Shown here: piece by piece, positions 7,459 to 56,988 of the stretch
Position numbering within the stretch: the first letter of the stretch is position 1
Layout of the letters: the number at the start of each line of letters is the position of its first letter
Origin: a virus
IMG/VR virus record: IMGVR_UViG_3300046692_000091
Coordinates: 143,261-207,260 of that record
DNA: 64,000 nucleotides
Strand: one strand, 5' to 3'
Position numbers and translations under genes: made by a program
Notes under the pieces: generated by a model
Told to the model about the DNA's origin: nothing
The model's input: the letters and a program-made list of their open reading frames with translations, nothing else
Database searches by the model: none

Positions 7459-7656
7459 ATGGAAACATTAGTTGGAATTATAGCTGCAATCGCCATGGCC
7501 AGTGCAATTGCTTTACTGGTATTGGGGATCAACGCTCTATGTTGGTGGGAAGCCTTTCTTCCCAAAACAAAGCGAAAAGTATTTATCAGTGCCTGTGTGT
7601 TGGGCACGATTGTATTTTTCAGTGTGCTTTGGTTTATTTGGCTCATGCACAACTAA
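7459..7656 (+). CDS. small membrane protein (65 aa)
   Basis: METLVGIIAAIAMASAIALLVLG...; starts at taacATGg after previous gene. Confidence 0.5.
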   Translation: METLVGIIAAIAMASAIALLVLGINALCWWEAFLPKTKRKVFISACVLGTIVFFSVLWFIWLMHN

Positions 7657-7717: not shown

Positions 7718-8458
7718 ATGCAAATCGAACAACGCGATACCAACATGACCCGCACTATGATGGACGCTTTCTTCAGTTGGTTCGCGGCAAACGACATCAG
7801 CCGTATCCACGTTATTGTGGACGGCACCCTTTTTGACAGTAAGGCTTTCGTAGACGATATGAATGGTCTGTATCAGATCCGTTTGTCTATTGGCGCTGCT
7901 GCAGTTCGTGGTTTCGGTTATCATGAACATGGCTTCTCGTACGGTTGCATGCGTCAAGGTGTTCATATCGACATGGACATTCCTTACGAAGCAGTGTTGG
8001 GCTTTGTTATCCCAACTGGTGAGAACACCGAAGTCATCTTCGAGGTTCCTAACCTGGAACGTCACCAAATGAAACTCGAACAACAGAAAGGTTTGTTGCC
8101 ACAACTGGGTAACTTCGCTTTCGTTGATCATGAAGGTAAAGCACTGCCGGATGAAATGGTTCATGAGCTGATGCGTCAACTCGTTCCATCCAATGCGGCC
8201 AAAGCAATCGAAGCCGCTCCTTATGCCGTACATGGCATCGCCCCAGAGACCCAGGATGAGGAAGGCAATCAACTGCCAACCATCACTGACCTGATGACCC
8301 GTAAACCTCTGGCGCAGCGTCCTGCTAAGCCCCAGCCTAAAGAAGCTCAAGCACCATTGTTGAACTTCGGCAATGTAAGTGGTACACAACTTCCAGCCCC
8401 AAAACCAACCCGTGCCATCCCTGCAGGTTGGTCCGTAATCCAAGGAGGTAAAGCATGA
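7718..8458 (+). CDS. sspB: SspB-like ClpXP adaptor homolog (stringent starvation protein B family)
   Basis: N-terminal ~110 aa aligns to E. coli SspB: MMDAFFSWFAANDISRIHVIVDGT vs LLRAFYEWLLDNQLTPHLVVDVT; IRLSIGAAAV vs IVLNIAPRAV; ...IPYEAVLGFV vs ...VPLAAVLAIY. Long low-complexity C-terminal tail, as in SspB. Confidence 0.6.
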   Translation: MQIEQRDTNMTRTMMDAFFSWFAANDISRIHVIVDGTLFDSKAFVDDMNGLYQIRLSIGAAAVRGFGYHEHGFSYGCMRQGVHIDMDIPYEAVLGFVIPTGENTEVIFEVPNLERHQMKLEQQKGLLPQLGNFAFVDHEGKALPDEMVHELMRQLVPSNAAKAIEAAPYAVHGIAPETQDEEGNQLPTITDLMTRKPLAQRPAKPQPKEAQAPLLNFGNVSGTQLPAPKPTRAIPAGWSVIQGGKA

Positions 8459-9168
8459 ACCCGTGTGACCAACTGGCGCATATCACGTGCCGTCGTAAAT
8501 CCCCGCGCCTGGCTGAGATCTTCAAGAAGCTGGATGGGGATTCGCATTTCCAGCAATTGGATATGTATGAACTGAATGACATGTTGTTCCGTGAACTAGC
8601 ATGGATGCCAAGTATGGTATCGATGGATTCTGAAGAACTCTATCAGGTCAACATCCGCACTATCCCGATCGCTCGTTTCGAAGATGGTGGTCTCCGTGTA
8701 CTGTCAATGGATACCCAAACCTTCTGGCCCAGTATGAATGATGTACAATCGGAACATGCTGTTCTGCAAGACATGGTTCATGCAGCTATGGTTAAGCATG
8801 TAATGTCCTGGGGCCTACGAATCAAAGAACCAGAACTGCGTATGCCGGTGTACTTCTCATTCGATCAACTCCGTCAGAATCTGGACGCTGTTGTTGTAGG
8901 GGCTGGTTTGCACACACTGACTGACGAACTCCGTCGTGTGCCACGTAAAACCAATCACCTCACTATTAATGTGGTGTTGACGATTACACCATCATTGATG
9001 TACCAGATCCGTGACCAGTCTCGTGCACAGATCTACATCTGCGACAACAACTTGCAACCTATCAATAACTTTGAAGGTGTTGTTGATAATGGGAACGAAA
9101 GTTTCTTTGACTTCTTGCGGAAACATAGTTACGACAGTAGCGTAATGTTAATGCCAGGTCTGGAGTAA
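8455..9168 (+). CDS. hypothetical protein (237 aa)
   Basis: ATGA overlap with sspB-like gene. Confidence 0.55.
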   Translation: MNPCDQLAHITCRRKSPRLAEIFKKLDGDSHFQQLDMYELNDMLFRELAWMPSMVSMDSEELYQVNIRTIPIARFEDGGLRVLSMDTQTFWPSMNDVQSEHAVLQDMVHAAMVKHVMSWGLRIKEPELRMPVYFSFDQLRQNLDAVVVGAGLHTLTDELRRVPRKTNHLTINVVLTITPSLMYQIRDQSRAQIYICDNNLQPINNFEGVVDNGNESFFDFLRKHSYDSSVMLMPGLE

Positions 9169-9171
9169 CAA

Positions 9172-10554
9172 ATGCTTATTCAGGAAGTGTTAGGGTTATA
9201 CCACAATGCAATAGAGATGCTCAGTTCGGGTGACTCAACAGTCAAAGGTTTCATGACGTTGGGTGTCATGGGTCTGTTGGGTTATTTGGGGCGTACGATA
9301 CCCCAAACAATCTGGGCGTTCATCAAACGTAACACGATTTCATCGATGACTTTCACTCGCGCAGGTTCATATTCCATGGACATGCAGAACTACGTAGAGT
9401 TCATGCGTTGGTTCTCACAATCCAAGTGGGCTAAATATGATCGCAATCGACGTGTAACATTCGATCGGAATGACCCAGCTTTTGGACCAGGTACTGGCTT
9501 CCACTGGTTTGTTTGGAAAGGTCGTTACTTCTGGTTTAATGTTGTCCGTTTGAATTCCTCCGGTACCGATATCGAGAAAGAAGAATTCACACTGTATACA
9601 TTCGGTCGTACCACTAAACCATTCGAAGAACTGGTGGAAGAGTTCCGTATCAAGCCATGCAAGAAATCGATACGTATCTATGCCCCATCGAATGACGGTT
9701 GGAACTATCAGGGGCGACTACGGTTGGACGCTGATGAAACACTGATCATCGATCCAGAAGTAGAGAAAGAGTTCTTTGGTTCTATCGACTGGTATCTGGC
9801 AAACGAACCATGGTACCGTAAACGTGGATTGGCTTATAAACACACTGTCGTGTTGCATGGTCCACCTGGTACCGGTAAGACTTCGTTGATCAAACGTGCA
9901 GCCCGGAAGTACAAGCGGGATATTCACTTCCTGAACTTGGCTACCCATGGTCGTCAGTTGACTGATCTGATGGGTAAGTTGTCGGCTGGTGACATTCTGT
10001 GCATTGAAGACTTTGATGATGTCAAGTCGTTGCACCGTCGCACTGGTCCGAAGAAGATGGAAATCGGTGAACTGGACATCGGTTCCGATAAGAAACCAGA
10101 AGCGTTGTTGATGGACTGCGAGATTCAACTCAGTACCTTCCTCAACGTTCTGCAAGGCGTTGTAGAGCTCGATGATATCATTATCGTGCTGACTACTAAC
10201 CACCTGGAACTGATCGATCCAGCGGTCTACCGTCCGTCCCGTGTGAACAAACTGATCGAAGTGCTACCTCTGAAAGATCCGGAAGTTAAGCGCTATATCG
10301 ACACGATGTATGATAATCCTACTTACGATCGTAATGTAATGTACCCAGACGTTCCAGCTTCTACCCTGGCTGGTATCTTCATGGAGCACCCGAACGATCA
10401 CCTGGCTTTCATTGATAAGCTAGATTCGTTGGACGACAAATACGTCGCGGAGAACTATGCTCTACAACCAGAGCCCCCGCGCCCACCTTCCAAGAAAAAT
10501 AAGGACCCTTCTCCAATAGGAGGACAGGTTCTTGAAACCGTAGAGGCAGCGTAA
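9172..10554 (+). CDS. membrane-anchored AAA+ ATPase, Bcs1-like
   Basis: N-terminal TM helix GFMTLGVMGLLGYLG; Walker A HGPPGTGKTSLIK; Walker B ILCIEDFD; BCS1-like ...IHFLNL. Confidence 0.7.
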   Translation: MLIQEVLGLYHNAIEMLSSGDSTVKGFMTLGVMGLLGYLGRTIPQTIWAFIKRNTISSMTFTRAGSYSMDMQNYVEFMRWFSQSKWAKYDRNRRVTFDRNDPAFGPGTGFHWFVWKGRYFWFNVVRLNSSGTDIEKEEFTLYTFGRTTKPFEELVEEFRIKPCKKSIRIYAPSNDGWNYQGRLRLDADETLIIDPEVEKEFFGSIDWYLANEPWYRKRGLAYKHTVVLHGPPGTGKTSLIKRAARKYKRDIHFLNLATHGRQLTDLMGKLSAGDILCIEDFDDVKSLHRRTGPKKMEIGELDIGSDKKPEALLMDCEIQLSTFLNVLQGVVELDDIIIVLTTNHLELIDPAVYRPSRVNKLIEVLPLKDPEVKRYIDTMYDNPTYDRNVMYPDVPASTLAGIFMEHPNDHLAFIDKLDSLDDKYVAENYALQPEPPRPPSKKNKDPSPIGGQVLETVEAA

Positions 10555-10555
10555 C

Positions 10556-10897
10556 ATGGATAATTTTGCACGTCACAACTTCAACGTCTACCCGGAAGAG
10601 ATGACCTACCACAAAGATCGCTTCTTGCAAAATGATGCTGGTTGTGCGGTAGTTACATTCGTTGGGGCTTTTCATGGCGATACCATTCTGACGAATGAAG
10701 TCGAAGTGATTGCACGTGGTGTGGAACTGGGTAAGATCGCTCGGTTCCTGGTTCGTTCAGGTGATCAGGAAACCCATCTCGACATGGATCTGACAACCTG
10801 CCGTTATGAAGCAGAAAGCAATATCAAAACCAAACTGGGTGACGTCGTACTGGTGTTCACCGCGCACTACCCAACCGAAGAAAAGGAAGCTGCATGA
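10556..10897 (+). CDS. hypothetical protein (113 aa); ends KEAA
   Basis: ORF; stop overlaps next ATG. Confidence 0.5.
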   Translation: MDNFARHNFNVYPEEMTYHKDRFLQNDAGCAVVTFVGAFHGDTILTNEVEVIARGVELGKIARFLVRSGDQETHLDMDLTTCRYEAESNIKTKLGDVVLVFTAHYPTEEKEAA

Positions 10898-11832
10898 TTC
10901 GCGTTCGTTATGGTTACAGTCATAGTTCTTCGACGATGCCTGTTGAAATGAAACACATGCCGGGTGGTGAACTCCACCCAACGCTTGACACGGATCACTT
11001 GAATGCCAGCGAGTACACCATCTACGCCGACACCAAGAGCTCGGATGATCTGTTTGGTATTGCTCTGGTAGCTAACGCTATCCGCCGTAATGCCGAAGTA
11101 CCAATCAAAGCACTCTCTCTGGTAATTGGTTATGTGCCTTATGCACGCCAAGACCGTATTGTTGGTGGTGAAGGTGAGGCACTATCGATCGAAGTGATGG
11201 CCGACTTCATCAACATGCTGAACTTCGATGCAGTGATCATTGCAGATCCCCACAGCGATACAACTCCGGCTTTGATCCGTAATGCTAAGGTCATGTCCCA
11301 GGAAATGATCTTCAGTGAATTCCTGATCCGCGAAACGGCAGACTTCGATACCCGTGAGATTGCTTACGTGCCATCTGAGTACATCCTGGTTTCCCCAGAT
11401 GCTGGTGCGATCAAGAAGACCGAGAAGCTGGCTACTAAGTTCGGCTTTAAAGGTGTAGCGTACGCTAACAAAACACGCAATACCCGTACCGGTAAGATCA
11501 CTGGTTGTACTGTGGACCGATTGGTTTTGGATGGTGAACCAGCAATGATAAGTCAACTACAAGGCGAGAAGCTTTTAGTAGTTGACGATATCTGTGATGG
11601 TGGTTATACATTTATCCAATTGGCCGAAGTGTTGAATACCTACAGCCCAGCTAGTTTGGAACTGTACGTCACTCACGGTATCTTCTCTAAAGGTCTCGAG
11701 CCGTTGTATAAAGCGGGTTACACTCGTGTTGTTACTACCAATGCTTATGGCATGGAAGGTAGCACTGAGCTGTATGCGCTTGAGAAAGAAGAAAAGAAAG
11801 CACTCAAATTCGTAAAAATCGATATTGCCTAA
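10894..11832 (+). CDS. ribose-phosphate pyrophosphokinase family protein (Prs-like; alternatively ADPR pyrophosphokinase Adps of the NARP1 pathway)
   Basis: Prs signatures GYVPYARQDR and PRPP-binding loop LLVVDDICDGGYT; 312 aa. Confidence 0.7.
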   Translation: MIRVRYGYSHSSSTMPVEMKHMPGGELHPTLDTDHLNASEYTIYADTKSSDDLFGIALVANAIRRNAEVPIKALSLVIGYVPYARQDRIVGGEGEALSIEVMADFINMLNFDAVIIADPHSDTTPALIRNAKVMSQEMIFSEFLIRETADFDTREIAYVPSEYILVSPDAGAIKKTEKLATKFGFKGVAYANKTRNTRTGKITGCTVDRLVLDGEPAMISQLQGEKLLVVDDICDGGYTFIQLAEVLNTYSPASLELYVTHGIFSKGLEPLYKAGYTRVVTTNAYGMEGSTELYALEKEEKKALKFVKIDIA

Positions 11833-11841
11833 GGATTCAAA

Positions 11842-13656
11842 ATGTCAATGTTTCTCAACGCTGGTACCGCTACTGACTTCTACAAACCTGGCCACGGTCC
11901 ACTGTATCCAGAAGGCACTACCCGTAAGTACTCCAACTTCACCCCACGCTCGGCGAAGAACTTCCTGCGTTCCAAAAGCTGCTCGGCTTACTATGATAAC
12001 AAAGTAGTAAACTTCGGCCTGTATGGTACCTGGCAAGAACTGGTTGACCTGTGGGATAAAACCTTCTTCCAAGTTTCGAAGAAGAAAGCAATCGCCTTCA
12101 TCAAACGTCGTTTTGATAATGGCACTGGTCCTGATGTTATCACAACTGCTCAAATCGCTGCACTCCACGATGTCGGCTTCCTGCCGGTAACTGTGTTGTC
12201 CATCGAAGAAGGTAACCGTGTCGATATCGGCATTCCTCTGTGGGTTATCTATAACTCCGAAGAATACCCAGAACACTACTGGCTGGTTAACTACCTGGAA
12301 ACCATCACCAGTTCGTACAACTGGCAGTCGATCACCAACGCAACCATCGCCTACGAATATCGTCGTCTGTGCGAGATCTGGGCTGCTAAGACCTGTGATA
12401 ACAATGACCACGTTAAAATCCAAGGTCATGACTTCTCGTTCCGTGGCATGCCTGGTCCAGAAGCTGCTGGTCGTTCTAACGCGGGCCACTTGGCTTCGTT
12501 CTGGGGTACTGATACTATCCCGGCAATCGATTACATCGAACGCCTGTATAACGCCAACTCTGATAAAGAAGTCCTGGGTGTATCGGTTACTGCTACTGAA
12601 CACGCCGTTGCTACTGCGAATATCCTGTCTCGCCTGAAGCACAAGATCCGTGCTCTGCCTGCCGACACTGTTATCTCCGGTGAAATGATCGATCTGCTCA
12701 AACTCGAATGCGAGCGTGAGTACATCCTGGAAATCATCCTGGTAAAAGTGAAGAAGGGTATCATCTCCCTGGTTTGCGATTCCTTCGACTTCTGGAGTGT
12801 TATCGAACACGTACTGCCTTCGCTCCGTAAGGAAATCGAAAGCCGTATCGTGAACGAACTCGGTCTGGCTAAAGTAGTTGTACGTCCTGACTCGGGTAAT
12901 CCGGTACACGTGATCTGTGGTTTCAAAATCATGGGTGAGTTCGCTGACATTGCTGCATTCTCGAAGCATGTCTACGACAACGGTACTTTCGAACTGGGTA
13001 TGTACGAAGCTGTGAAGATTGGTGATGTTTACCATGAACTGCAGAATACTACTTGGACTAGCTGCTCTATCGAAGACTTCCTGGGTCGTGAGATGAAGCG
13101 GGTAGAAGCAATCGGTGCGATCGAATCCCTGTGGGAATCTTTCGGTGGTCACACTAACACCAAAGGCTATAAAGTACTGAACTCGTACATCGGTCTGATC
13201 TATGGTGACTCGATCACTGTTGAACGTACCGAACAGATCTTCCAACGTCTGGCTGATAAAGGCTTCGCTTCGTCGAACGTTGTTCTGGGTATCGGTTCGT
13301 TTACTTATCAGTACAACACTCGTGATACCTTCGGCATGGCCATGAAGGCAACTGCGTGTGAAGTGCAGGATGAACTGATCGAGCTGTACAAAGATCCGAA
13401 GACCGCTGCATCCAAGAAGTCCGCTAAAGGCTTCCTGCGTGTACTGAAAGACGAGAACGGCAAATATACACTCGAACAAGAAGTGGAAATGGATTGGAAA
13501 GATCTGTTCTACGGTTCGGGTGAACTGAAGCCTCTGTTCCACAACGGTAAGTTCCAGCGTGCTGAACATTTCGGTGATGTACGTAGTCGCATTGACTCTA
13601 CTTTCGTAGTAGCTAATGACGATGACGGTTTCGACCCAGTCGAAGAAGCGGCATAA
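11842..13656 (+). CDS. nicotinamide phosphoribosyltransferase family protein (NAMPT/NadV-like, or Namat-like), 604 aa
   Basis: N-terminal GTATDFYKPGH resembles NAMPT DSYKxxH; type II PRTase-like length; ends VEEAA. Confidence 0.65.
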   Translation: MSMFLNAGTATDFYKPGHGPLYPEGTTRKYSNFTPRSAKNFLRSKSCSAYYDNKVVNFGLYGTWQELVDLWDKTFFQVSKKKAIAFIKRRFDNGTGPDVITTAQIAALHDVGFLPVTVLSIEEGNRVDIGIPLWVIYNSEEYPEHYWLVNYLETITSSYNWQSITNATIAYEYRRLCEIWAAKTCDNNDHVKIQGHDFSFRGMPGPEAAGRSNAGHLASFWGTDTIPAIDYIERLYNANSDKEVLGVSVTATEHAVATANILSRLKHKIRALPADTVISGEMIDLLKLECEREYILEIILVKVKKGIISLVCDSFDFWSVIEHVLPSLRKEIESRIVNELGLAKVVVRPDSGNPVHVICGFKIMGEFADIAAFSKHVYDNGTFELGMYEAVKIGDVYHELQNTTWTSCSIEDFLGREMKRVEAIGAIESLWESFGGHTNTKGYKVLNSYIGLIYGDSITVERTEQIFQRLADKGFASSNVVLGIGSFTYQYNTRDTFGMAMKATACEVQDELIELYKDPKTAASKKSAKGFLRVLKDENGKYTLEQEVEMDWKDLFYGSGELKPLFHNGKFQRAEHFGDVRSRIDSTFVVANDDDGFDPVEEAA

Positions 13657-13662
13657 TCGGAC

Positions 13663-13700
13663 GGGGACCTTCGGGTCCCCATCCTATTTTCTTTTTTGTC
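13663..13700 (+). terminator. hairpin + T-rich tract
   Basis: ggggaccttcgggtcccc + atcctattttcttttttg. Confidence 0.6.
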
Positions 13701-14349: not shown

Positions 14350-15774
14350 ATGAAAGAATATTTGTCCATGCAGCAAGAAGTACTGGAACGAGGCGTGCCG
14401 AAAGGTGACCGCACTGGTACTGGTACTATTTCTTGCCCTGGTGTTAGTCGTGTATATGACATCAGCGATAATCGGTTGGCTGCAACGTCTACCAAAAAGA
14501 TTCACATCAAGACAGGTCAGGTTGAAGAAGACTGGATGTTGTCAGGTGATACCCGACTGAAGTTCCTGAAAGACAACAACTGCAACATCTGGGACGAATG
14601 GGTTCTGAAAGGTACCGGTATCTATCGTAATCGTACGGTCAAAGAAATGCGTCGAGTTTATACTCGTAACCATTTCGGTTGGTCTAAACCAGTCGTTCTA
14701 GATATCGGTTGTGACCCAGAGAACACAGAAGTCTGGAATAAGGTTGCAGAAACAGAGGACTTCGAAGTCTGGGCATGGGACGTAACTAAAGGCATCGGCA
14801 TTAAACCACATCATGGCATTCGGGATAAGTCCAAGGATAGTCTGAATTGGATGAACTGGCAAAACCCAGAAGATCCTATTTGGCTTCAGTTCTACTCTGC
14901 TCTGGGTATCTCTGATCTGGAAGTAATGGACGGAGAACTCGGTAAGGTATACGGGGCAATGTTCCGTAGTATCGAAGACACCCGTATCGATAGTGGTGGG
15001 GGTGTTAATGAGAAAGAATGGACAGACCGTGGATTCTCTTGGGAAGGTATGTTAGGTGATGGCCGATCGGTGTATACGCGTAAGATCGATCAGGTTGCTA
15101 AACTACTGTATGATCTGGAGCATAACCCAGATTCTCGTCGTTTGATTCTGTGTCCATGGAACCCAGCATATGTAGATGAACAAGCATTGCCTCCTTGCCA
15201 TTCATTCATCCAGTTCTGGACGCGTGAGATGACTTCCGAGCAACGTTACCATGTCTATTGTAAGCAGTATGACCGTGAGCAAAAAGAGTTGCTTGACGAC
15301 ATTGCTAAACGTAGTCGTGCCGACATTTATACTGCGCATGCTCCATATCCGTTGTCATGCTTTGCTGAAGTCGACGACCGTGGTACTTTCTTCGATCATT
15401 ATAAGCTGCATGCTTATCTAGATGAGCTTGATGTTCCACGTCGTGCTTTGACATGCATTGTTTATATGCGGTCTAACGATGTGTTCTTGGGTGCACCGTA
15501 TAACCTCACGTTCTATTCTTCACTAACGCACAAGCTGGCTCACCAGTTTAACATGTACGGTGAGAAACTGGTTCACTTCGTAGGTGATGCACATATCTAC
15601 CAGAACCATTTGGATCAAGTTGCCGAACAACAAGCTCGTACACCTGACCGTGATATGCCTCGACTGAAGATCAATGTTCCGAAAGGTACTTCGATTCTCG
15701 ACATGACGTTCCAAGATCTGGAAGTGATCGGTTATAACCCACAGCCTGCTATTGAAGCACCTGTAGCTGTTTAA
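14350..15774 (+). CDS. thyA: thymidylate synthase ThyA, 474 aa with large insertions
   Basis: DRTGTGT, DPDSRRLILCPWNP, catalytic LPPCHSFIQFW, C-terminal GDAHIYQNHLDQ; three inserted segments relative to ~264-aa ThyA. Confidence 0.85.
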   Translation: MKEYLSMQQEVLERGVPKGDRTGTGTISCPGVSRVYDISDNRLAATSTKKIHIKTGQVEEDWMLSGDTRLKFLKDNNCNIWDEWVLKGTGIYRNRTVKEMRRVYTRNHFGWSKPVVLDIGCDPENTEVWNKVAETEDFEVWAWDVTKGIGIKPHHGIRDKSKDSLNWMNWQNPEDPIWLQFYSALGISDLEVMDGELGKVYGAMFRSIEDTRIDSGGGVNEKEWTDRGFSWEGMLGDGRSVYTRKIDQVAKLLYDLEHNPDSRRLILCPWNPAYVDEQALPPCHSFIQFWTREMTSEQRYHVYCKQYDREQKELLDDIAKRSRADIYTAHAPYPLSCFAEVDDRGTFFDHYKLHAYLDELDVPRRALTCIVYMRSNDVFLGAPYNLTFYSSLTHKLAHQFNMYGEKLVHFVGDAHIYQNHLDQVAEQQARTPDRDMPRLKINVPKGTSILDMTFQDLEVIGYNPQPAIEAPVAV

Positions 15775-17010: not shown

Positions 17011-17282
17011 ATACGTTGCTTAAAATCTGTATCATCTTGTGCTTTCAGTTGTATTGGTTGCTGGCCTGGCCATTCATGAAACGTACTCGTTACCTCACCA
17101 CAGCCGGTAAGTTGAACCGTATTCCGAATATGGGTACCGGTTGCAGCGAGATCGTTAAGCTGTTGAATCGGGACTATGGCGCTGAGATGCAGATTGAAGT
17201 AACGGCTAGTCCGCGCTTCCGTTATGATCGTTTCCGCTGGACATTCCGTTTCTGCGATTGCACCATCCGCGTTACCGAATAA
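17007..17282 (+). CDS. hypothetical protein (91 aa)
   Basis: ATGA overlap; hydrophobic N-terminus. Confidence 0.45.
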   Translation: MNTLLKICIILCFQLYWLLAWPFMKRTRYLTTAGKLNRIPNMGTGCSEIVKLLNRDYGAEMQIEVTASPRFRYDRFRWTFRFCDCTIRVTE

Positions 17283-17352
17283 AAATATACCCGTGTTGAT
17301 TATTGATTGCGATGAAGTCTGTCGCTTTCAATATCTCACGAGGTGTATTTCA

Positions 17353-18735
17353 ATGACTCAAGAAGTTGCTGTATCTGTCGAAGTTGTAACTCCACCAGTA
17401 GTGGAAGCTGTTGTTGTAAAAGAAATCAAAGAAGGTTTCGGTGTTGTAGAGAAAGACCGGAAACTTGCACGTATCGTTGTAATTGATGATGTCGTTAAGC
17501 ATCCTAATGCTGACGCTCTGGAACTGGCTGTTATTGGTGGCTGGCAGCTCTGCGTTAAAATTGGCGAATACAAGAAAGGTGATCGTGCAGTCTACTGTGA
17601 AATCGACTCTCTGCTCCCACTGTCTAACGTAGAACTGTTCGGCTTCCTGGAAGAACGCCGTTCCGATAACCGTCGTGTAAATGGTGTGAACTTTCACCGT
17701 CTGAAAACCATCAAGCTGCGTAAAGAACTTTCGCAAGGTCTGCTGGTGCCAGTTCCTGCTAAGTTCAAAGATGCTCCGGTTGATACTAACCTGACTATCG
17801 AACTTGGTATCCTGAAATACGAAGCCCGTGCACCTATGGAACCTGGTTCGAAAGAAACCCGTGGTTCGGATTGGTACTCGCGTTTGGTTCGACGTATCCT
17901 GGGTAATATTGGCGGTACTCTGCTGCCATGGCCTACTCAGCTGATGAAGTCTGACCAAGATCGCGTACAGAACAAAACTGTTGCTTTCGCTGTGGCTCAA
18001 GAAGAAGGTGAAGAATTCGAAGTTACCTTCAAGCTCGACGGCCAGTCGATGACAGTCTTCTGCATCGATGATAACGGTATCCGTACTGGTGTCTGCTCCC
18101 GTAACTACGAACTGGGTATTGGCGGTGGTCAATGGACATTCGCTGAACAGATCCGTTACTGGGTTGGTACTTTCCTGGCTCGTAACCGTAAGATCATCTC
18201 CTGGAAGAAAACCAAGGATGAAGAAGGTAACTTCAAGCTTAAGGTTCGCTGGAACGGTGTGAACATCCCTGAGTGGAAAGCCAAAACTGAAGGTGGCGAT
18301 AACAACTATACCCGTACTGTTGCTAAGTACGACATCATCGAGAAGCTGAAAGCCTACCAAGCACGTACTGGTGAATTCATCAGCCTGCAAGGCGAACAGA
18401 TCGGTCCTGACATTCAGTCTGGTTTCGAAGGCGTAGAAGAACACGAGTATCATGTCTTCAACGTATACCGCAATGGTAACGAAGAAGTCCTGCCAGAAGA
18501 AGCACGTAAGATTGTTGCTGAACTTGGTCTGACTTACGTCCCAGTGATGCATGAACGTTTCAAGATCCCTGCAGAATTCACTGTTAAGGATATCCTGGCT
18601 ATGGCCGAAGGTCAACGTGCTTTCAACCAGAAGAAAGGTACTTACCGTGAAGGTATCGTGTTCAAGTCGCTGAAACGAGTAATGTCGTGGAAAGCTATCT
18701 CGAATGCTTACCTCTGTAAGAAAGCTGACGAATAA
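17353..18735 (+). CDS. ATP-dependent RNA ligase with N-terminal tRNA-binding (Myf/EMAP-like OB) domain
   Basis: tRNA_bind signature VVKHPNADALELAVIGGWQLCVKIGEYKKGDRAVY; ligase motif I TFKLDGQS; SD 'gaggtgtatttcaATG'. Confidence 0.55.
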   Translation: MTQEVAVSVEVVTPPVVEAVVVKEIKEGFGVVEKDRKLARIVVIDDVVKHPNADALELAVIGGWQLCVKIGEYKKGDRAVYCEIDSLLPLSNVELFGFLEERRSDNRRVNGVNFHRLKTIKLRKELSQGLLVPVPAKFKDAPVDTNLTIELGILKYEARAPMEPGSKETRGSDWYSRLVRRILGNIGGTLLPWPTQLMKSDQDRVQNKTVAFAVAQEEGEEFEVTFKLDGQSMTVFCIDDNGIRTGVCSRNYELGIGGGQWTFAEQIRYWVGTFLARNRKIISWKKTKDEEGNFKLKVRWNGVNIPEWKAKTEGGDNNYTRTVAKYDIIEKLKAYQARTGEFISLQGEQIGPDIQSGFEGVEEHEYHVFNVYRNGNEEVLPEEARKIVAELGLTYVPVMHERFKIPAEFTVKDILAMAEGQRAFNQKKGTYREGIVFKSLKRVMSWKAISNAYLCKKADE

Positions 18736-29694: not shown

Positions 29695-29839
29695 AGAAGT
29701 CTTAGCTAGTGTGGCGGGGGGTGCTTTAGTGCAGTCCCGTCATCTACCTGAAACCAAACTTGCGCTGGAACCTACCCAACAGACGGATCGATTGGAACTC
29801 AAACCAAATCCAGAATATCTGGTGGACGTGTACATATGA
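29657..29839 (+). CDS. hypothetical small protein (60 aa)
   Basis: Internal ATG; overlaps previous gene by ~38 nt. Confidence 0.3.
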   Translation: MTKELFPENLSFEEVLASVAGGALVQSRHLPETKLALEPTQQTDRLELKPNPEYLVDVYI

Positions 29840-30114
29840 GCAGCAAACAAATGACCCTGATCCGTGGGGTTATGGTAAACGATCTGTTGGAAATCAATCA
29901 ACAGGTTCAAGATGGTATCGATAGCCAAGAGTTAGGCTTTACCATCGATCAAGCTGTTGCTGTTAAACAAGCAATCCAAGACACTACTGTCGGTGTACTG
30001 CATGTGATCGACAAGCATGCGCAAATCTTTCCTGCTGGTCATGATCTCGGCTCTAATCCTTTCTTTAATGAATCGGAACTAGCCGAAGCTTACATCGAAG
30101 CAATCAACTCTTAA
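29836..30114 (+). CDS. small acidic protein ending ...YIEAINS (INS-tail family)
   Basis: ATGA overlap; C-terminal aromatic-x3-[IV]NS shared with 7 others. Confidence 0.5.
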   Translation: MSSKQMTLIRGVMVNDLLEINQQVQDGIDSQELGFTIDQAVAVKQAIQDTTVGVLHVIDKHAQIFPAGHDLGSNPFFNESELAEAYIEAINS

Positions 30115-30674: not shown

Positions 30675-30908
30675 ATGACTGACAAAATCGTAGAAGCCAA
30701 TGTTGAATCCCGTGATGCCCTGATCAGTATTATCAATGAAGTCCGTAGCACCGCCAATGGCGAAGTCACCATCGCTGCCGCTGTTGATGTTGCAATCACC
30801 GGCACCGTAATTGCTGTTGAACAAGCTGTCCTGTCCGGTGGCATGGGTTCGGTAGTTGACCTGAACGAAGCCCTGGGTAAGAACTGGGCCGAAGCCGTTA
30901 ACTCCTAA
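30675..30908 (+). CDS. small acidic protein ending ...WAEAVNS (INS-tail family)
   Basis: SD 'aggaagcaccgcaATG'. Confidence 0.5.
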   Translation: MTDKIVEANVESRDALISIINEVRSTANGEVTIAAAVDVAITGTVIAVEQAVLSGGMGSVVDLNEALGKNWAEAVNS

Positions 30909-31192
30909 TGGCGCTGTCCCTAATCGACTCAGGGTTGTTCAAGCTGTTGGACCGTGATCGTGACCAACTGGTGTGCGATGAGTTCAAAGATGCACGTGAC
31001 GAGGCCGGTAATCTAACCGTCGCCTCCGTCTCTGCAGCTATGGATAAACTGTACGACAGAACAGTCGGACAAACGTTGTACGCTTTAGATAGCGTAGGCT
31101 TCTTCACGATTGCCGATACTAAAGCTAGAACAATTACAGATATCGTTTCTCAGTCAATGGGCGACGAATGGTTCGCTGCAATCAACTCGTAA
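30908..31192 (+). CDS. small acidic protein ending ...WFAAINS (INS-tail family)
   Basis: taATG overlap. Confidence 0.5.
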   Translation: MALSLIDSGLFKLLDRDRDQLVCDEFKDARDEAGNLTVASVSAAMDKLYDRTVGQTLYALDSVGFFTIADTKARTITDIVSQSMGDEWFAAINS

Positions 31193-31591: not shown

Positions 31592-32455
31592 ATGAAACTG
31601 CTGTCCGTTATCAAGTCCGCTGCACTCGCCATGATCGCCGTCGTTGCACTGCAAGGCTGCTCGTTCGAAGTCATCCCACCTGCCTTCAAAGGTAAGATTC
31701 TGACTACCTCTGGTTACAACCCAGAGATCCTGGAACCAGGTAAAGAAACTCTGTGGGGTCGTGATGAACTGGTCCTGCTGGAAACCGGTACTCGCACTGT
31801 TGCTGAAACCATCACCGTGAAGATGGATGACAAACTCGATCTGACTTTCGATGTTCGTTTCCGTACTCGCATTGGCGGGGACAAGAAAGTCCTGAACCAA
31901 ATGTTCAATGACATTCAGGTCAAAGAAAAGCGTGTGACACTGCAACAAGTCTACGGTGTGTATGGTCTTGATGTAGTGCAATCGGTATCTCGTTCAGTTG
32001 TTGGCAAATACAAAACCGAAGATGTCGGTGCTAACTTCGATAAGATCACCGCTGATCTGTCTGAACGTCTCGTGAAAGCAATGGTTAATTCCCCCCTGGA
32101 AGTATCGAACGTTACTCTTGGTAATCTGAAGTATCCTAAAGTGATTACTGAAGCGATCGAGAAACAACAAGAGCGTCTGCTGGCTATTGAAACTGAAACC
32201 AACCAGCAAGCCATCGAAACAGTTAAACGTGATAACCAACTGCGGTTGGCACAACTGGATCGCGATATCGAACTGACCAAAGCCAAGACTCTGCGGGATG
32301 CTAACGCCATTACTGCGGATGGTCTGAGCCCGGCACTGCTGCAATACCGTGCTCTGGACGTACAAGAGAAAATGGCTGAGAATGATGCCGCTGTATTCGT
32401 ACCATACGAAGCCTTCGGTACCGCTGGCATGTCTAACCGTATCTTCAACAAGTAA
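31592..32455 (+). CDS. SPFH/band-7 (HflC/K-like) domain lipoprotein
   Basis: Lipobox MKLLSVIKSAALAMIAVVALQGC; long Ala/Glu/Gln-rich coiled-coil typical of SPFH proteins. Confidence 0.55.
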   Translation: MKLLSVIKSAALAMIAVVALQGCSFEVIPPAFKGKILTTSGYNPEILEPGKETLWGRDELVLLETGTRTVAETITVKMDDKLDLTFDVRFRTRIGGDKKVLNQMFNDIQVKEKRVTLQQVYGVYGLDVVQSVSRSVVGKYKTEDVGANFDKITADLSERLVKAMVNSPLEVSNVTLGNLKYPKVITEAIEKQQERLLAIETETNQQAIETVKRDNQLRLAQLDRDIELTKAKTLRDANAITADGLSPALLQYRALDVQEKMAENDAAVFVPYEAFGTAGMSNRIFNK

Positions 32456-33213: not shown

Positions 33214-33672
33214 ATGTCTCCCGCTCTTGTTCTCTCCCTCGCTGCTATTGTAATCGTTCTACTCGTTGCCTACTATGCGTGGGTTGGTCTTATCAATGCT
33301 ACCGGTGGTGGCTTGAAAGAGTGGGTAGATGCAGACTTTCCTGATATCGTGCATACGCCGAAAGCGACATGGTTGACTGGGTTTAAATATCGCCAACATG
33401 GCTTGTCTGTTAAAGCTAAATTGGATGTGCCGATCTGTCTAGAATATGATCAGCATGTACATCTTGGTCGGTTCTCTGTGGTTGACACCTTTGCACGTTC
33501 CGCCAGTTCATTAGACGGGGTTGATCAGAACCATGAAAAGGATCTGGTTGCCTATGACTTTGGTATGGATCTGGAACTCATGACTGGTGGTCAAATCGCT
33601 ATGCGCGTAGTCTATAACCGCATCAGTATTACCGACATCGAACCAGTCATCAAGGAGTCTGCCTGTGAGTGA
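33214..33672 (+). CDS. membrane-anchored protein (152 aa)
   Basis: N-terminal TM LVLSLAAIVIVLLVAYYAWVGL; SD 'aaaggaaaactgcaATG'. Confidence 0.5.
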   Translation: MSPALVLSLAAIVIVLLVAYYAWVGLINATGGGLKEWVDADFPDIVHTPKATWLTGFKYRQHGLSVKAKLDVPICLEYDQHVHLGRFSVVDTFARSASSLDGVDQNHEKDLVAYDFGMDLELMTGGQIAMRVVYNRISITDIEPVIKESACE

Positions 33673-34018
33673 GTACCCAAAGGCAACCAAGGCCGAGCTT
33701 GAAAAAGCATATGCCTTGGTTAATGAATTAGAGAAAGAACTCGTAGCCGATTCACAAATGGCACGTGGAATTTGGTTTGCTGATATTCAAGCGAACGTCC
33801 TAGATCAGAACCCCCCAAAGTTTGACAAAGGGTCAACGATGACCCAAGCTTTCCGCATGGGGATTGATCGTGGTGTGGAATGTGTATTGAGCGCAGTCGA
33901 TTCTCGGGGCATCCTGATGATCGATGGCAATGATCGAATGCTCAACGTAGACATCACTAGCGATGGTCCGGATATGTTACCCCTGGTAGATCTGTGGACT
34001 ACCTACATTAATAGCTGA
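33665..34018 (+). CDS. protein ending ...WTTYINS (INS-tail family)
   Basis: GTGA overlap; C-terminal INS. Confidence 0.5.
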   Translation: MSEYPKATKAELEKAYALVNELEKELVADSQMARGIWFADIQANVLDQNPPKFDKGSTMTQAFRMGIDRGVECVLSAVDSRGILMIDGNDRMLNVDITSDGPDMLPLVDLWTTYINS

Positions 34019-34025
34019 GGTCTCG

Positions 34026-34361
34026 ATGTATCAAACCACCAATGATGAACGTTGGGCAAAAGCCACGACTCGTGTTATCACTGATGCTGAGATGAATAAT
34101 GCCAGTATCCGTATTGGTCAGAACATGATGTTCCAAGGGCTCAATCAGGACCTTAAGGAATTGAATCAGCTGGTCGATATGGACGAGGATAAAATCAAGT
34201 GTGTCCAGCTAGGTATGTGCATGGTTTTCAATTACATTGAAGACGCTCAGTTAGAACTGATCAGTAAAGAAGATCAGGGTTCACTGAATCCTACTCATGA
34301 ATCACATGACTATCATCTTGGTTTTGCATGGGATAGTTACATCGCTTCTATTAATAGCTAG
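34026..34361 (+). CDS. protein ending ...YIASINS (INS-tail family)
   Basis: SD 'tgaggtctcgATG'. Confidence 0.5.
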   Translation: MYQTTNDERWAKATTRVITDAEMNNASIRIGQNMMFQGLNQDLKELNQLVDMDEDKIKCVQLGMCMVFNYIEDAQLELISKEDQGSLNPTHESHDYHLGFAWDSYIASINS

Positions 34362-56125: not shown

Positions 56126-56160
56126 ATAAAGCCTCACGCGGATGGAAAGAGGAATTGTTA

Positions 56161-56186
56161 CATACACTGACTTTGCCAGTATTATT
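56161..56186 (-). promoter_or_regulatory. minus-strand promoter-like bipartite motif (AATACTGG-N11-TATGT) upstream of rtcB
   Basis: RC = taataATACTGGcaaagtcagtgTATGTaac; one of 5 copies. Confidence 0.45.
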
Positions 56187-56961: not shown

Positions 56962-56988
56962 GTATACTATTACGTTCTCAGTATTTTA
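56962..56988 (-). promoter_or_regulatory. minus-strand promoter-like motif overlapping radical-SAM stop
   Basis: RC = aaAATACTGAgaacgtaatagTATACgac; faces a 435-nt noncoding region. Confidence 0.45.

What the first reader, a model, noticed from the sequence alone, without database searches (positions are those of the whole stretch)
10894..13656. Adjacent Prs-like and NAMPT-like genes: NAD salvage or NAD+ reconstitution (NARP1-like) counter-defense pair
A ribose-phosphate pyrophosphokinase-family enzyme (YARQDR, VDDICDGG) sits directly upstream of a 604-aa nicotinamide phosphoribosyltransferase-family enzyme. Two explanations fit. One is classical phage NAD salvage, PRPP synthesis plus NadV as in KVP40-like phages. 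The other is the phage NAD+ reconstitution pathway NARP1, in which a Prs-like ADP-ribose pyrophosphokinase (Adps) and a NAMPT-like transferase (Namat) rebuild NAD+ from ADPR and nicotinamide to defeat NAD-depleting defences such as Thoeris, DSR, SIR2 and SEFIR. No NMNAT is seen nearby, which favours the NARP1-type reading. The NAMPT-like protein is ~110 aa longer than typical.
Basis: partly seen in the sequence, partly recalled or inferred. Interest (0 to 1): 0.6.

Follow-up and report, generated by a model that had tools for sequence, protein, structure and literature searches.

The report
Phage NAD+ rebuilding gene pair (NARP1)
Two adjacent genes in a Pseudomonas jumbo-phage-like genome almost certainly encode the already described NARP1 pathway, which rebuilds NAD+ from ADP-ribose and nicotinamide after bacterial defences destroy it; this is a correct call but an ordinary new member of a known system.

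Summary
They share a strand, sit 9 nt apart, and a terminator-like hairpin follows the second stop codon.

The NAMPT-like protein carries the published Namat signature GSFTYQYNTRD. That is identical to the crystallised SPbetaL1 Namat and unlike true Nampt/NadV enzymes (KVP40, H. ducreyi, Xanthomonas). Its AlphaFold model best matches the Namat crystal structure.

The Prs-like protein falls below every NCBIfam Prs cut-off. It has the remodelled Adps PP loop (DDICDGGYTF; Prs has DDMIDTGGTL) and the catalytic lysine. In a tree it groups with validated Adps enzymes (ICP1, SPbetaL1, FADO, a Bas63-genus proxy) and apart from cellular Prs (bootstrap 86).

No NMNAT, Nudix, PnuC or NadR was detected in the 64-kb window.

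The orthologous pair in the nearest isolate, Pseudomonas phage Psa21, is already listed as Adps/Namat-associated in Osterman et al.'s supplementary tables.

The extra ~110 aa are mainly two confidently folded insertions. They are typical of a widespread long-form Namat group; the Bas63 prototype carries the second insertion.

Verdict: NARP1, a new member of a known kind. Enzyme activity and anti-defence phenotype are inferred, not shown.

The parts
10894..11832 (+). adps: Prs-fold ADP-ribose pyrophosphokinase (ADPR-PP synthetase) homologue, 312 aa
   Evidence: phrog_619 at 1.2e-73. TIGR01251 scores 99.4 bits, below its 113-bit cut-off, and every Prs equivalog model is far below cut-off. An HMM built from four NARP1 reference Adps scores it 164 bits, against 82 bits for E. 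coli Prs. An NJ tree places it in the Adps clade with bootstrap 86. Identity is 34% to Bas63 Adps (136 bits) and 26% to E. coli Prs (62 bits).
11470..11472 (+). Codon of Lys193, equivalent to the catalytic lysine K185 of ICP1 Adps and K162 of SPbetaL1 Adps
   Evidence: Alignment mapping. The same column holds SPbetaL1 K162, the residue mutated in Osterman et al., and ICP1 K185 (PMC13586617). The lysine is also conserved in Prs, so it shows an intact active site but says nothing about specificity.
11584..11613 (+). Adps PP-loop region D231-F240 (DDICDGGYTF)
   Evidence: It matches ICP1 Adps D212-F221 (DDICDGAASF), Bas63 Adps (DDICDGGRTF) and 26 of 28 sampled clade members. Nine cellular Prs from three phyla have DD(M/I)(I/V)DT(G/A)GT(L/M/I) instead. 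PMC13586617 identifies this loop as the remodelled ATP-donor site.
11831..11835 (+). AAGGA ribosome-binding site for namat, overlapping the adps stop codon inside the 9-nt spacer
   Evidence: Read directly from the sequence.
11842..13656 (+). namat: nicotinamide ADP-ribose transferase homologue, 604 aa, long form
   Evidence: phrog_448 at 3.2e-169 and Pfam NAPRTase at 2.5e-34. The best PDB sequence match is SPbetaL1 Namat 9w5x/9w5w at 354 bits. The AlphaFold2 model has pLDDT 93 and pTM 0.90. Foldseek's top hits are the Namat crystal structures, TM-score 0.94 on the target. The catalytic-core residues D12, Y14, F198, R201, D224, A251, H254, R348 and D350 are conserved.
11950..12000 (+). Expanded beta1-beta2 loop, the selectivity-clamp loop (SCL), residues 37-53, with K39 at the position of SPbetaL1 R40
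   Evidence: Alignment. The loop is about 9 aa longer than in SPbetaL1 and is modelled at pLDDT above 90. The stacking residue cannot be assigned without a ligand-bound model.
12622..12729 (+). Insertion 1 (residues 261-296): extends a helical hairpin (helices 254-270 and 280-302)
   Evidence: Absent from SPbetaL1, FADO, ICP1 and KVP40. Present in 119 of the 120 closest homologues, the last not scorable. pLDDT is above 93. No Pfam match.
12925..13110 (+). Insertion 2 (residues 362-423): small alpha/beta subdomain after the RPDSG strand
   Evidence: Absent from the short Namats. The site varies widely in length among homologues: the RPDSG-to-YGD distance is 80-180 aa, against 52 in SPbetaL1. 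Bas63 and skuden Namat carry an even larger insertion at the same site. Mostly pLDDT 88-96. No Pfam match.
13294..13326 (+). Namat selectivity-clamp helix (SCH) signature G485-D495 = GSFTYQYNTRD
   Evidence: It fits the published GS-X-phi-X-phi-X-phi-TRD motif, with aromatic residues at positions 3 (F487) and 7 (Y491), and is identical to SPbetaL1 Namat G390-D400 (PMC12774641). KVP40 NadV has GGGLLQQLDRD, H. ducreyi NadV has GAQTYQRNTRD and Xanthomonas Nampt has GGALLQKVDRD.
13663..13697 (+). Terminator-like hairpin (GGGGACC-TTCG-GGTCCCC) followed by a T-rich tract, starting 7 nt after the namat stop codon
   Evidence: Consensus scan and direct reading. This is a pattern match only. The number of such sites in the region is no greater than in shuffled sequence, so the argument rests on its position.
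10556..10897 (+). 113-aa all-beta ORF of unknown function whose stop overlaps the adps start (ATGA). It may share the transcription unit; membership in the pathway is not shown.

Best explanation
The two genes are an adps-namat operon, that is, NAD+ reconstitution pathway 1 (NARP1), in a Psa21-like (phiKZ-like, Tepukevirus-related) Pseudomonas jumbo phage.

Proposed mechanism, inferred from homology. When a host defence with a SIR2, TIR or SEFIR NADase (Thoeris type I, DSR1/2, SIR2-HerA, SEFIR and similar) cleaves NAD+ into ADP-ribose and nicotinamide, the 312-aa Adps uses ATP to pyrophosphorylate the terminal ribose of ADPR, giving ADPR-PP. [quoted passage not shown] The 604-aa Namat then replaces the pyrophosphate with nicotinamide, using the conserved Nampt catalytic core. 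Its selectivity clamp (F487 and Y491 in the GSFTYQYNTRD helix, plus the expanded beta1-beta2 loop) holds the adenine, so ADPR-PP is preferred over PRPP. The product is NAD+ directly, with no NMN adenylyltransferase step.

Shown here: sequence and predicted-structure membership in the two subfamilies, gene arrangement, synteny, and no NMNAT detected in the window.

Inferred: the enzyme activities and the counter-defence role.
For: Namat side:
- The SCH signature GSFTYQYNTRD is identical to the crystallised, biochemically characterised SPbetaL1 Namat. It differs at the adenine-stacking positions from KVP40 NadV, H. ducreyi NadV and Xanthomonas Nampt.
- All catalytic-core residues are conserved.
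- The best PDB sequence and structure matches are Namat 9w5x/9w5w.
- An HMM of four NARP1 Namats scores the window protein 490 bits, against 270 bits for KVP40 NadV.

Adps side:
- It is below every NCBIfam Prs cut-off.
- Its PP loop is of the ICP1/Bas63 Adps type and not the Prs DTGGT type.
- K193 aligns with K185 (ICP1) and K162 (SPbetaL1), and R85, H120, D169, D231 and D232 are conserved.
- An NJ tree puts it inside a clade (bootstrap 86) that also holds Adps from ICP1 and SPbetaL1 (active in vitro), FADO (in vivo) and skuden, a Felixounavirus standing in for Bas63. Prs from Proteobacteria, Acidobacteria and Actinobacteria fall outside.

Context:
- adps lies immediately upstream of namat, with a 9-nt spacer, an RBS and a terminator-like hairpin after namat.
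- The same arrangement occurs in Psa21, RVTF4 and a 317-kb JGI contig.
- Osterman et al. list Psa21 gene 303 as 'Namat within 10 genes: Yes' and gene 304 as 'Adps-associated'.
- No NMNAT, Nudix, NadR or PnuC in the window.
- Bas63 Namat, validated in vivo, carries an insertion at the second insertion site, so the long form is compatible with NARP1 function.
Against: - No biochemistry or genetics exists for this protein pair or for any member of the Psa21-like clade.
- Identity to validated enzymes is only 30-38%.
- In the SCL, the residue after K39 is Asn, not the aromatic residue seen in Bas63-type Namats, so the third adenine-stacking contact is unassigned.
- ICP1 Adps adenine contacts F18 and F92 are not clearly conserved (Y8 in an uncertain alignment, and G91). 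However, SPbetaL1 Adps, which is active, also lacks them.
- H. ducreyi NadV scores 303 bits against the window protein, so overall similarity does not separate Namat from the nearest bacterial NadV. The call rests on a few motif positions.
- Only 64 kb of a genome of roughly 300 kb is visible, so an NMNAT elsewhere cannot be excluded directly.
- The tree is neighbour-joining with a small Prs outgroup.
Confidence: 0.87

Rival explanations
1. Classical pyridine salvage. The 312-aa protein is a true PRPP synthetase and the 604-aa protein a true Nampt/NadV. Together they make NMN from ribose-5-phosphate, ATP and nicotinamide. NMN is then adenylylated by a host enzyme (NadR or NadD, or via PncC) or by a phage NMNAT encoded outside the window. 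This would be a NARP2-like or KVP40-like logic.
For: - Both proteins belong to the Prs and NAPRTase/Nampt superfamilies, and database annotations call them that.
- SPbetaL1 Namat can still make NMN from PRPP in vitro.
- H. ducreyi NadV is a fairly close relative at 303 bits.
- Only 64 kb of the genome is visible.
Against: - The Nampt-type motif (GG.LLQ..DRD) is absent and the Namat aromatic clamp is present.
- The Prs-like protein fails all Prs cut-offs, has the Adps PP loop and sits in the Adps clade.
- SPbetaL1 Adps, a member of that clade, gave no PRPP-synthetase activity in Osterman et al..
- No NMNAT in the window.
- Psa21 is labelled Adps-associated, not Nmnat-associated, and no phage was found with both NARP1 and NARP2.
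Confidence: 0.06
2. The chemistry is NARP1 but the main role is not counter-defence. The pair would act as general metabolic support, recycling ADPR and nicotinamide from any source (host NAD+ turnover, phage or host ADP-ribosyltransferases, NAD+-dependent ligase side reactions) to sustain the large biosynthetic demand of a jumbo-phage infection.
For: - The pair sits among nucleotide-metabolism and RNA-repair genes (thymidylate synthase homologue, RNA ligase) and not in an obvious anti-defence island.
- Bacterial NARP1 homologues of unknown physiological role exist.
- The neighbourhood with ThyA is conserved as far as Phabio.
Against: - In Bas63, ADPR-PP appeared only when the NAD+-depleting defence was present.
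- NARP1 deletion phenotypes in Bas63 and FADO are defence-specific.
- Nothing in the sequence separates the two roles, and they are not mutually exclusive.
Confidence: 0.05

Closest known systems
NARP1 (Adps + Namat) of phages Bas63 (JohannRWettstein), SPbetaL1, FADO and ICP1 (Osterman et al. 2024, bioRxiv 10.1101/2024.02.11.579819; Namat structure PMC12774641; Adps structure PMC13586617)
   Same: - Two-gene adps-then-namat arrangement.
- Namat SCH motif identical to SPbetaL1, with the catalytic core conserved.
- Adps PP loop of the ICP1/Bas63 type, with the catalytic lysine conserved.
- Membership of the same clades.
- The insertion after the RPDSG strand is shared with Bas63-type Namat.
   Different: - Only 30-38% identity to the validated enzymes.
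- Namat is 604 aa, with two insertions (helical hairpin 261-296 and alpha/beta subdomain 362-423), a longer SCL with K-N-F in place of R (SPbetaL1) or K-W (Bas63), and a disordered tail of about 14-19 aa.
- Adps is 312 aa, against 272-293 aa.
- The host phage is a phiKZ-like jumbo phage.
- adps is translationally coupled to a clade-specific 113-aa ORF.
Pseudomonas phage Psa21 genes PSA21_303/304 (also RVTF4 and D6), annotated 'ribose-phosphate pyrophosphokinase' and 'nicotinamide phosphoribosyltransferase'
   Same: They are orthologues. Synteny is identical from the BCS1-like AAA ATPase through the long ThyA to the RNA ligase. The long-form Namat (609 aa) and the PP loop are the same. The pair is already catalogued as Namat-/Adps-associated by Osterman et al..
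   Different: Namat is 76% identical but Adps only 48% identical. The window belongs to a distinct, apparently unsequenced relative. The closest database proteins are 95-97% identical and come from metagenome contigs.
NARP2 / KVP40 NadV + NatV (Nampt + NMNAT)
   Same: Same Nampt fold and catalytic core. Same overall purpose, restoring NAD+.
   Different: KVP40 NadV has GGGLLQQLDRD in place of the aromatic clamp and is only 26% identical. It needs an NMNAT partner, which was not detected in the window. It has no Prs-like partner.
Class I ribose-phosphate pyrophosphokinase (Prs/PRPS; E. coli Prs, human PRPS1)
   Same: Same two-domain PRT fold. Conserved YARQDR, DPH, catalytic lysine and DD acceptor residues.
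   Different: 26% identity. Below the TIGR01251 cut-off and all equivalog cut-offs. PP loop ICDGGYTF in place of MIDTGGTL. Different RF-loop sequence and a shorter, unrelated C-terminus.

Membership tests
NARP1 - Namat | Nampt-like catalytic core: NAM-stacking Phe/Tyr, Asp215, Arg306, Asp308 and the catalytic His (SPbetaL1 numbering) | tested here: met
   The window has D12, Y14, F198, R201, D224, A251, H254, R348 and D350. All are invariant in an 85-sequence alignment.
NARP1 - Namat | [quoted passage not shown] | tested here: met
   GSFTYQYNTRD (G485-D495) is identical to SPbetaL1 G390-D400. KVP40 NadV, H. ducreyi NadV and Xanthomonas Nampt lack the aromatics.
NARP1 - Namat | SCL (beta1-beta2 loop) supplies a stacking residue: Arg at the third position, or Lys/Tyr followed by a stacking fourth residue | tested here: inconclusive
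   The window has S-A-K39-N40-F41. Lys is at the third position but Asn, not an aromatic, is at the fourth, with Phe at the fifth. The loop is about 9 aa longer than in SPbetaL1. A ligand-bound model is needed.
NARP1 - Namat | Preference for ADPR-PP over PRPP, producing NAD+ directly | not testable with these tools
   Requires an enzyme assay.
NARP1 - Adps | Placement in the Adps clade, separate from cellular Prs | tested here: met
   NJ tree on 286 columns with 100 bootstraps. All 28 non-Prs sequences in the tree (the window protein, the ICP1, SPbetaL1, FADO and skuden references, Psa21, RVTF4 and the sampled homologues) form one clade with support 86, apart from 9 Prs from 3 phyla. The outgroup is small and the method simple.
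NARP1 - Adps | Remodelled PP loop / ATP-donor site (ICP1 C215-S220 plus F221), conserved among Adps homologues | tested here: met
   The window has C234-D-G-G-Y-T239 plus F240, against ICP1 C-D-G-A-A-S plus F. Prs has I-D-T-G-G-T plus L. SPbetaL1 and FADO use a different variant (SSFGGTF), so the rule is not universal.
NARP1 - Adps | Catalytic lysine (ICP1 K185 / SPbetaL1 K162) and acceptor residues R87, H121, D161, D212, D213 | tested here: met
   K193, R85, H120, D169, D231 and D232. These are also conserved in Prs, so they show an intact active site only.
NARP1 - Adps | Loss of the C-terminal alpha11-alpha12 filament/regulatory module of PRPS | tested here: inconclusive
   The window has 27 residues after the TTN motif, against about 45 in E. 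coli Prs, and the sequence is unrelated. No Adps structure was predicted here.
NARP1 - Adps | ADPR + ATP gives ADPR-PP + AMP, with no PRPP synthesis | not testable with these tools
   Requires an enzyme assay.
NARP1 - operon | adps and namat adjacent (97% of Adps-clade genes have a Namat within 10 genes) | tested here: met
   9-nt spacer on the same strand. Conserved in Psa21, RVTF4 and the JGI contig. In Phabio three small ORFs separate the two genes.
NARP1 - operon | Protects the phage from NAD+-depleting defence systems | not testable with these tools
   Requires phage genetics.
NARP2 (Nampt + Nmnat) | Nampt-type protein that prefers PRPP, in the clade with KVP40 NadV | tested here: not met
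   26% identity to KVP40 NadV and a Namat motif in place of GGGLLQQLDRD.
NARP2 (Nampt + Nmnat) | Nmnat encoded in the same genome | tested here: not met
   Nothing in the 64-kb window: Pfam on 102 ORFs and tblastn with the KVP40 NMNAT at E > 0.6. The rest of the genome is not visible. The Psa21 orthologue is labelled Adps-associated, not Nmnat-associated.
NARP3 (PnuC-like transporter + NadR-like enzyme) | PnuC and NadR homologues | tested here: not met
   No such Pfam family among the window ORFs. NARP3 is defined in PMC13464706.
Housekeeping class I Prs | Reaches the TIGR01251 or equivalog cut-offs and has the R5P-phosphate loop DTGGT | tested here: not met
   99.4 bits against a 113-bit cut-off, with equivalog models at 40-92 bits against 296-536. 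The loop is CDGGYT.

The most novel reading that the evidence does not exclude
The long-form Namat found here and in many jumbo phages could be more than a decorated enzyme. The confidently folded, length-hypervariable alpha/beta subdomain at residues 362-423 is the main candidate, with the helical hairpin at 261-296 and the enlarged clamp loop. These could be a functional add-on: docking Adps to channel the hydrolysis-prone ADPR-PP, evading a host inhibitor, or regulating activity. Separately, the tightly packed co-directional block 7718-13656 could form an extended NAD+-related counter-defence module. That block holds two unknown ORFs, a BCS1-like AAA ATPase, a clade-specific 113-aa beta protein translationally coupled to adps, then adps and namat, and it is bracketed by terminator-like hairpins. 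Nothing I found supports a specific function for these parts. The evidence merely does not exclude one.
Probability: 0.1. Interest if true: 0.5.

Novelty: new member of a known kind. Interest (0 to 1): 0.27.

Why it matters
This shows that a previously unsequenced Psa21-like Pseudomonas jumbo phage carries the NARP1 counter-defence. Its host range should therefore be less limited by Thoeris type I, DSR, SIR2-HerA, SEFIR and similar NAD+-depleting systems. That has practical relevance because Psa21-type phages are considered for biocontrol of Pseudomonas syringae.

It also gives a worked example of re-annotating 'ribose-phosphate pyrophosphokinase / nicotinamide phosphoribosyltransferase' pairs as Adps/Namat from two short sequence signatures. 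It documents that most close relatives are long-form Namats whose insertions have not been studied. It adds no new biology beyond the published NARP1 work.

Tried and rejected
- **RyDEP accessory.** I looked for a RyR-domain cADPR glycosidase, which sits inside some NARP1 loci (PMC13232231). No RyR (PF02026) or other Pfam/PHROG hit was found for the 113-aa upstream ORF, the 204-aa downstream ORF or any other window ORF.
- **Pfam on the two Namat insertions alone.** Nothing at E up to 1.
- **Genome-contig scan with E. coli Prs for a diverse outgroup.** It returned only gammaproteobacterial Prs at 80-99% identity. I supplemented these with three Prs sequences from Osterman's Table S1.
- **Viral-contig scan with KVP40 NadV.** It returned only KVP40 itself and one near-identical relative, so no broad Nampt clade could be built. 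I relied on motif comparison with KVP40, H. ducreyi and Xanthomonas enzymes.
- **Bit score as a discriminator.** Rejected, because H. ducreyi NadV (9ke8) scores 303 bits against 354 for Namat.
- **Sigma-70 promoter scan.** It found fewer sites than in shuffled sequence. It is in any case not applicable, because phiKZ-like phages use their own RNA polymerases.
- **The BCS1-like AAA ATPase as a general NARP1 partner.** Not supported, because it is absent next to the Phabio NARP1 genes.

Full report
**Observation.**
The window holds two co-directional ORFs exactly as described. One is 10894-11832 (312 aa) and the other is 11842-13656 (604 aa).

- The first ORF is a Prs-superfamily protein. It hits phrog_619 at 1.2e-73, Pfam Pribosyltran and Pribosyltran_N, and TIGR01251 at 1.8e-28.
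- Its TIGR01251 score is only 99.4 bits against a 113-bit cut-off. Every Prs equivalog model is far below cut-off.
- The second ORF is a Nampt-superfamily protein. It hits Pfam NAPRTase at 2.5e-34, phrog_448 at 3.2e-169 and PRK09198 at 442 bits.
- The genes are 9 nt apart, with an AAGGA ribosome-binding site overlapping the first stop codon.
- A GC-rich hairpin followed by a T tract begins 7 nt after the second stop codon.

**Genomic setting.**
The nearest isolates are the phiKZ-like Pseudomonas jumbo phages Psa21 (Tepukevirus), RVTF4 and D6. Nucleotide similarity of 75-78% is detectable only over the Namat gene.

- Gene order is identical in Psa21, RVTF4 and a 317-kb JGI metagenome contig. 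It runs: two unknown ORFs, a BCS1-like AAA ATPase, a 113-aa ORF, the Prs-like gene, the Nampt-like gene, a ~200-aa ORF, a long thymidylate-synthase homologue, then further on an RNA ligase.
- The closest database proteins are 95% (Namat) and 97% (Adps) identical and come from metagenomes, so the phage itself appears to be unsequenced.
- Psa21 encodes nucleus-shell and PhuZ homologues and its own RNA polymerases. The sigma-70 promoter scan is therefore not informative.

**Is the 604-aa protein Namat or Nampt?**
The 2026 structural study of SPbetaL1 Namat defines what separates the two. The catalytic core is shared. Namat adds an adenine-binding 'selectivity clamp', made of a variable beta1-beta2 loop (SCL) and a conserved helix (SCH). 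[quoted passage not shown]

SCH-region sequences compared:

| Protein | Sequence |
|---|---|
| Window (G485-D495) | GSFTYQYNTRD |
| SPbetaL1 Namat | GSFTYQYNTRD (identical) |
| KVP40 NadV | GGGLLQQLDRD |
| H. ducreyi NadV (PDB 9ke8) | GAQTYQRNTRD |
| Xanthomonas Nampt | GGALLQKVDRD |

- All catalytic-core residues are present: D12, Y14, F198, R201, D224, A251, H254, R348 and D350.
- By sequence, the best PDB hits are the Namat entries 9w5x/9w5w at 354 bits.
- An AlphaFold2 model (pLDDT 93, pTM 0.90) matches those same entries best, with TM-score 0.94 on the target.
- One caveat: H. ducreyi NadV is second at 303 bits, so overall similarity is not decisive. The motif positions carry the argument.
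- An HMM built only from the SPbetaL1, FADO, ICP1 and skuden Namats scores the window protein 490 bits, against 270 bits for KVP40 NadV.
- The SCL test is inconclusive. The residue aligned with SPbetaL1 R40 is K39, which is allowed. The next residue is Asn, not the aromatic seen in Bas63-type Namats, and Phe follows it.

**Is the 312-aa protein Adps or Prs?**
The ICP1 Adps structures (PMC13586617) show that ADPR lies in the conserved acceptor groove. A remodelled PP loop (C215-S220, capped by F221) and a beta-hairpin carrying K185 form a new ATP-donor site.

- The window protein has DDICDGGYTF. ICP1 has DDICDGAASF and Bas63 has DDICDGGRTF.
- Nine cellular Prs from Proteobacteria, Acidobacteria and Actinobacteria all have DD(M/I)(I/V)DT(G/A)GT(L/M/I).
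- K193 falls in the same alignment column as ICP1 K185 and SPbetaL1 K162. K162 is the residue Osterman et al. mutated, which also validates the alignment.
- The acceptor residues R85, H120, D169, D231 and D232 are conserved.
- Pairwise scores:

| Reference | Bits |
|---|---|
| Bas63 Adps | 136 |
| ICP1 Adps | 126 |
| SPbetaL1 Adps | 83 |
| E. coli Prs | 62 |

- No PDB Prs exceeds 45 bits.
- An HMM of four reference Adps gives 164 bits for the window protein, against 82 bits for E. coli Prs.
- A neighbour-joining tree (286 columns, 100 bootstraps) puts all 28 non-Prs sequences, including the window protein and the four NARP1 references, in one clade with 86% support. The window protein is nested between the ICP1/Felixounavirus and SPbetaL1/FADO lineages. 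The outgroup is small and the method simple, so this corroborates but does not prove the placement.

**Other partners and prior cataloguing.**
- Pfam scans of the 8 neighbouring ORFs and of the 94 other window ORFs of at least 90 aa found no NMNAT, cytidylyltransferase, Nudix, NadR or PnuC. The only families in the 94-ORF scan were RtcB, RNA ligase with PHA02142 OB fold, alginate lyase, Band_7, DUF4262, Laminin_G_3 and a weak radical-SAM hit.
- tblastn with the KVP40 NMNAT found nothing. This argues against NARP2 and NARP3, at least within the 64 kb visible.
- Osterman et al.'s Table S1 lists Psa21 MK552327_00303 with 'Namat within 10 genes: Yes'. Table S2 lists MK552327_00304 as 'Adps-associated', not 'Nmnat-associated'.
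- They also report that no phage carries both NARP1 and NARP2.
- The orthologous pair in the nearest isolate has therefore already been counted among the 859 NARP1 phages.

**The extra length.**
Alignment with short Namats locates the extra residues as follows:

| Element | Residues | Approx. gain |
|---|---|---|
| Longer SCL | 37-53 | +9 aa |
| Insertion 1 | 261-296 | +27 aa |
| Insertion 2 | 362-423 | +53 aa |
| C-terminal tail | 586-604 (last ~14 modelled as disordered, pLDDT below 50 from 591) | ~19 aa |

- In the model, insertion 1 lengthens a helical hairpin and insertion 2 forms a small alpha/beta subdomain. Both are modelled with high confidence, and neither has a Pfam match.
- They are not peculiar to this phage. 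119 of the 120 closest homologues carry insertion 1 (the last could not be scored). The insertion-2 site varies so that the RPDSG-to-YGD distance ranges from 80 to 180 aa, against 52 in SPbetaL1.
- Bas63 Namat, validated in vivo, and its 98%-identical relative in phage skuden carry a larger insertion at the same second site.

**Mechanism.**
Shown here: both proteins have intact active sites and the subfamily-specific specificity elements, and they are arranged as a compact two-gene unit.

Inferred from the characterised homologues:
- Adps transfers the beta-gamma pyrophosphate of ATP to the terminal ribose of ADPR.
- Namat couples ADPR-PP to nicotinamide to give NAD+ directly.
- This restores the NAD+ pool after cleavage by SIR2, TIR or SEFIR NADase defences.

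I put this at about 0.87. The classical Prs + NadV reading (about 0.06) is contradicted by the motifs, the failed Prs cut-offs, the clade placement and the absence of a detectable NMNAT. A non-defence 'metabolic recycling' role for the same chemistry (about 0.05) cannot be separated by sequence.

**Dead ends.**
- The 113-aa ORF whose stop overlaps the adps start is restricted to this clade, with 13 homologues. It is predicted to be all-beta and has no informative structural neighbour.
- No RyDEP-like accessory is present.
- The BCS1-like ATPase is not linked to NARP1 in Phabio.

**Verdict.**
The system is a new member of a known kind. Interest is modest: it is a clean example for re-annotation, and the long-form Namat insertions remain uncharacterised. 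Nothing here departs from published NARP1 biology.

Noticed in passing
window 14350-15774 (+): A thymidylate-synthase homologue of 474 aa, about 200 aa longer than the 266-position Pfam model. Protein residues 2-309 cover only profile positions 1-168, which implies a large internal insertion. Long versions (465-474 aa) occur at the same position in Psa21, RVTF4, the JGI contig and Phabio, always a few genes downstream of the NARP1 genes.
   Followed up: partly
window 17224-18735 (+) and 54866-56167 (-): Two RNA-repair-type ligases in one window: an RNA ligase with a PHA02142 OB-fold domain (8.6e-24 and 2.1e-17) and an RtcB (5.6e-128). Together they suggest repair of tRNA or RNA cut by host anticodon nucleases, which would be another counter-defence function near NARP1.
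   Followed up: partly
window 9172-10554 (+): A BCS1-like AAA ATPase (BCS1_N + AAA; phrog_7485 at 2.4e-110), annotated 'FtsH' in Psa21. It lies two genes upstream of adps in the same tightly packed co-directional block, 7718-13656. That block is bracketed by terminator-like hairpins at 7589-7607 and 13663-13680. The ATPase is not adjacent to the NARP1 genes in Phabio.
   Followed up: partly
window 4377, 10554, 10897, 13656, 16078, 20045, 20443, 20715, 36239 (ORF ends): About ten proteins end in ...(E/K)EAA or ...AA. The DNA shows why. The gene ends read AAGGAAGCnGCATGA, which is the ribosome-binding site plus the ATG of the next gene embedded in the last codons (ATGA overlaps). Namat ends the same way (GAAGAAGCGGCATAA) even though no gene overlaps it.
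   Followed up: yes
window 29836-30114, 30675-30908, 30908-31192, 33665-34018, 34026-34361 (+): Five small ORFs (77-117 aa) share a C-terminal ...(A/Y)(I/V)NS ending (AYIEAINS, NWAEAVNS, EWFAAINS, LWTTYINS, SYIASINS). This suggests a locally expanded paralogous family of unknown function.
   Followed up: no
P0001-P0120 (closest Namat homologues), motif aligned to window 13294-13326: In 45 of the 111 close homologues where the motif could be read, position 7 of the Namat clamp motif is His (44 SYTYQHNTRD plus one SYTYQHVTRD). Cys, Met or Leu occupy it in 13 more. That is broader than the published Tyr/Phe consensus. The window itself has Tyr.
   Followed up: partly
PDB 9ke8/9keo (H. ducreyi NadV) versus window 11842-13656: H. 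ducreyi NadV is much closer to Namat than human, Xanthomonas or KVP40 Nampts are: 303 bits against about 155 bits for human. Its motif, GAQTYQRNTRD, is intermediate, keeping the Namat frame but lacking the two adenine-stacking aromatics. Annotation by overall similarity would confuse the two.
   Followed up: partly
window 31592-32455 (+) and 56986-57870 (-): An SPFH/Band_7 protein (3.1e-13) and a weak radical-SAM hit (1.5e-4, below the Pfam cut-off). An alginate lyase (6.4e-39), a DUF4262 and a Laminin_G_3 hit are also somewhere in the window; their coordinates were not determined.
   Followed up: no
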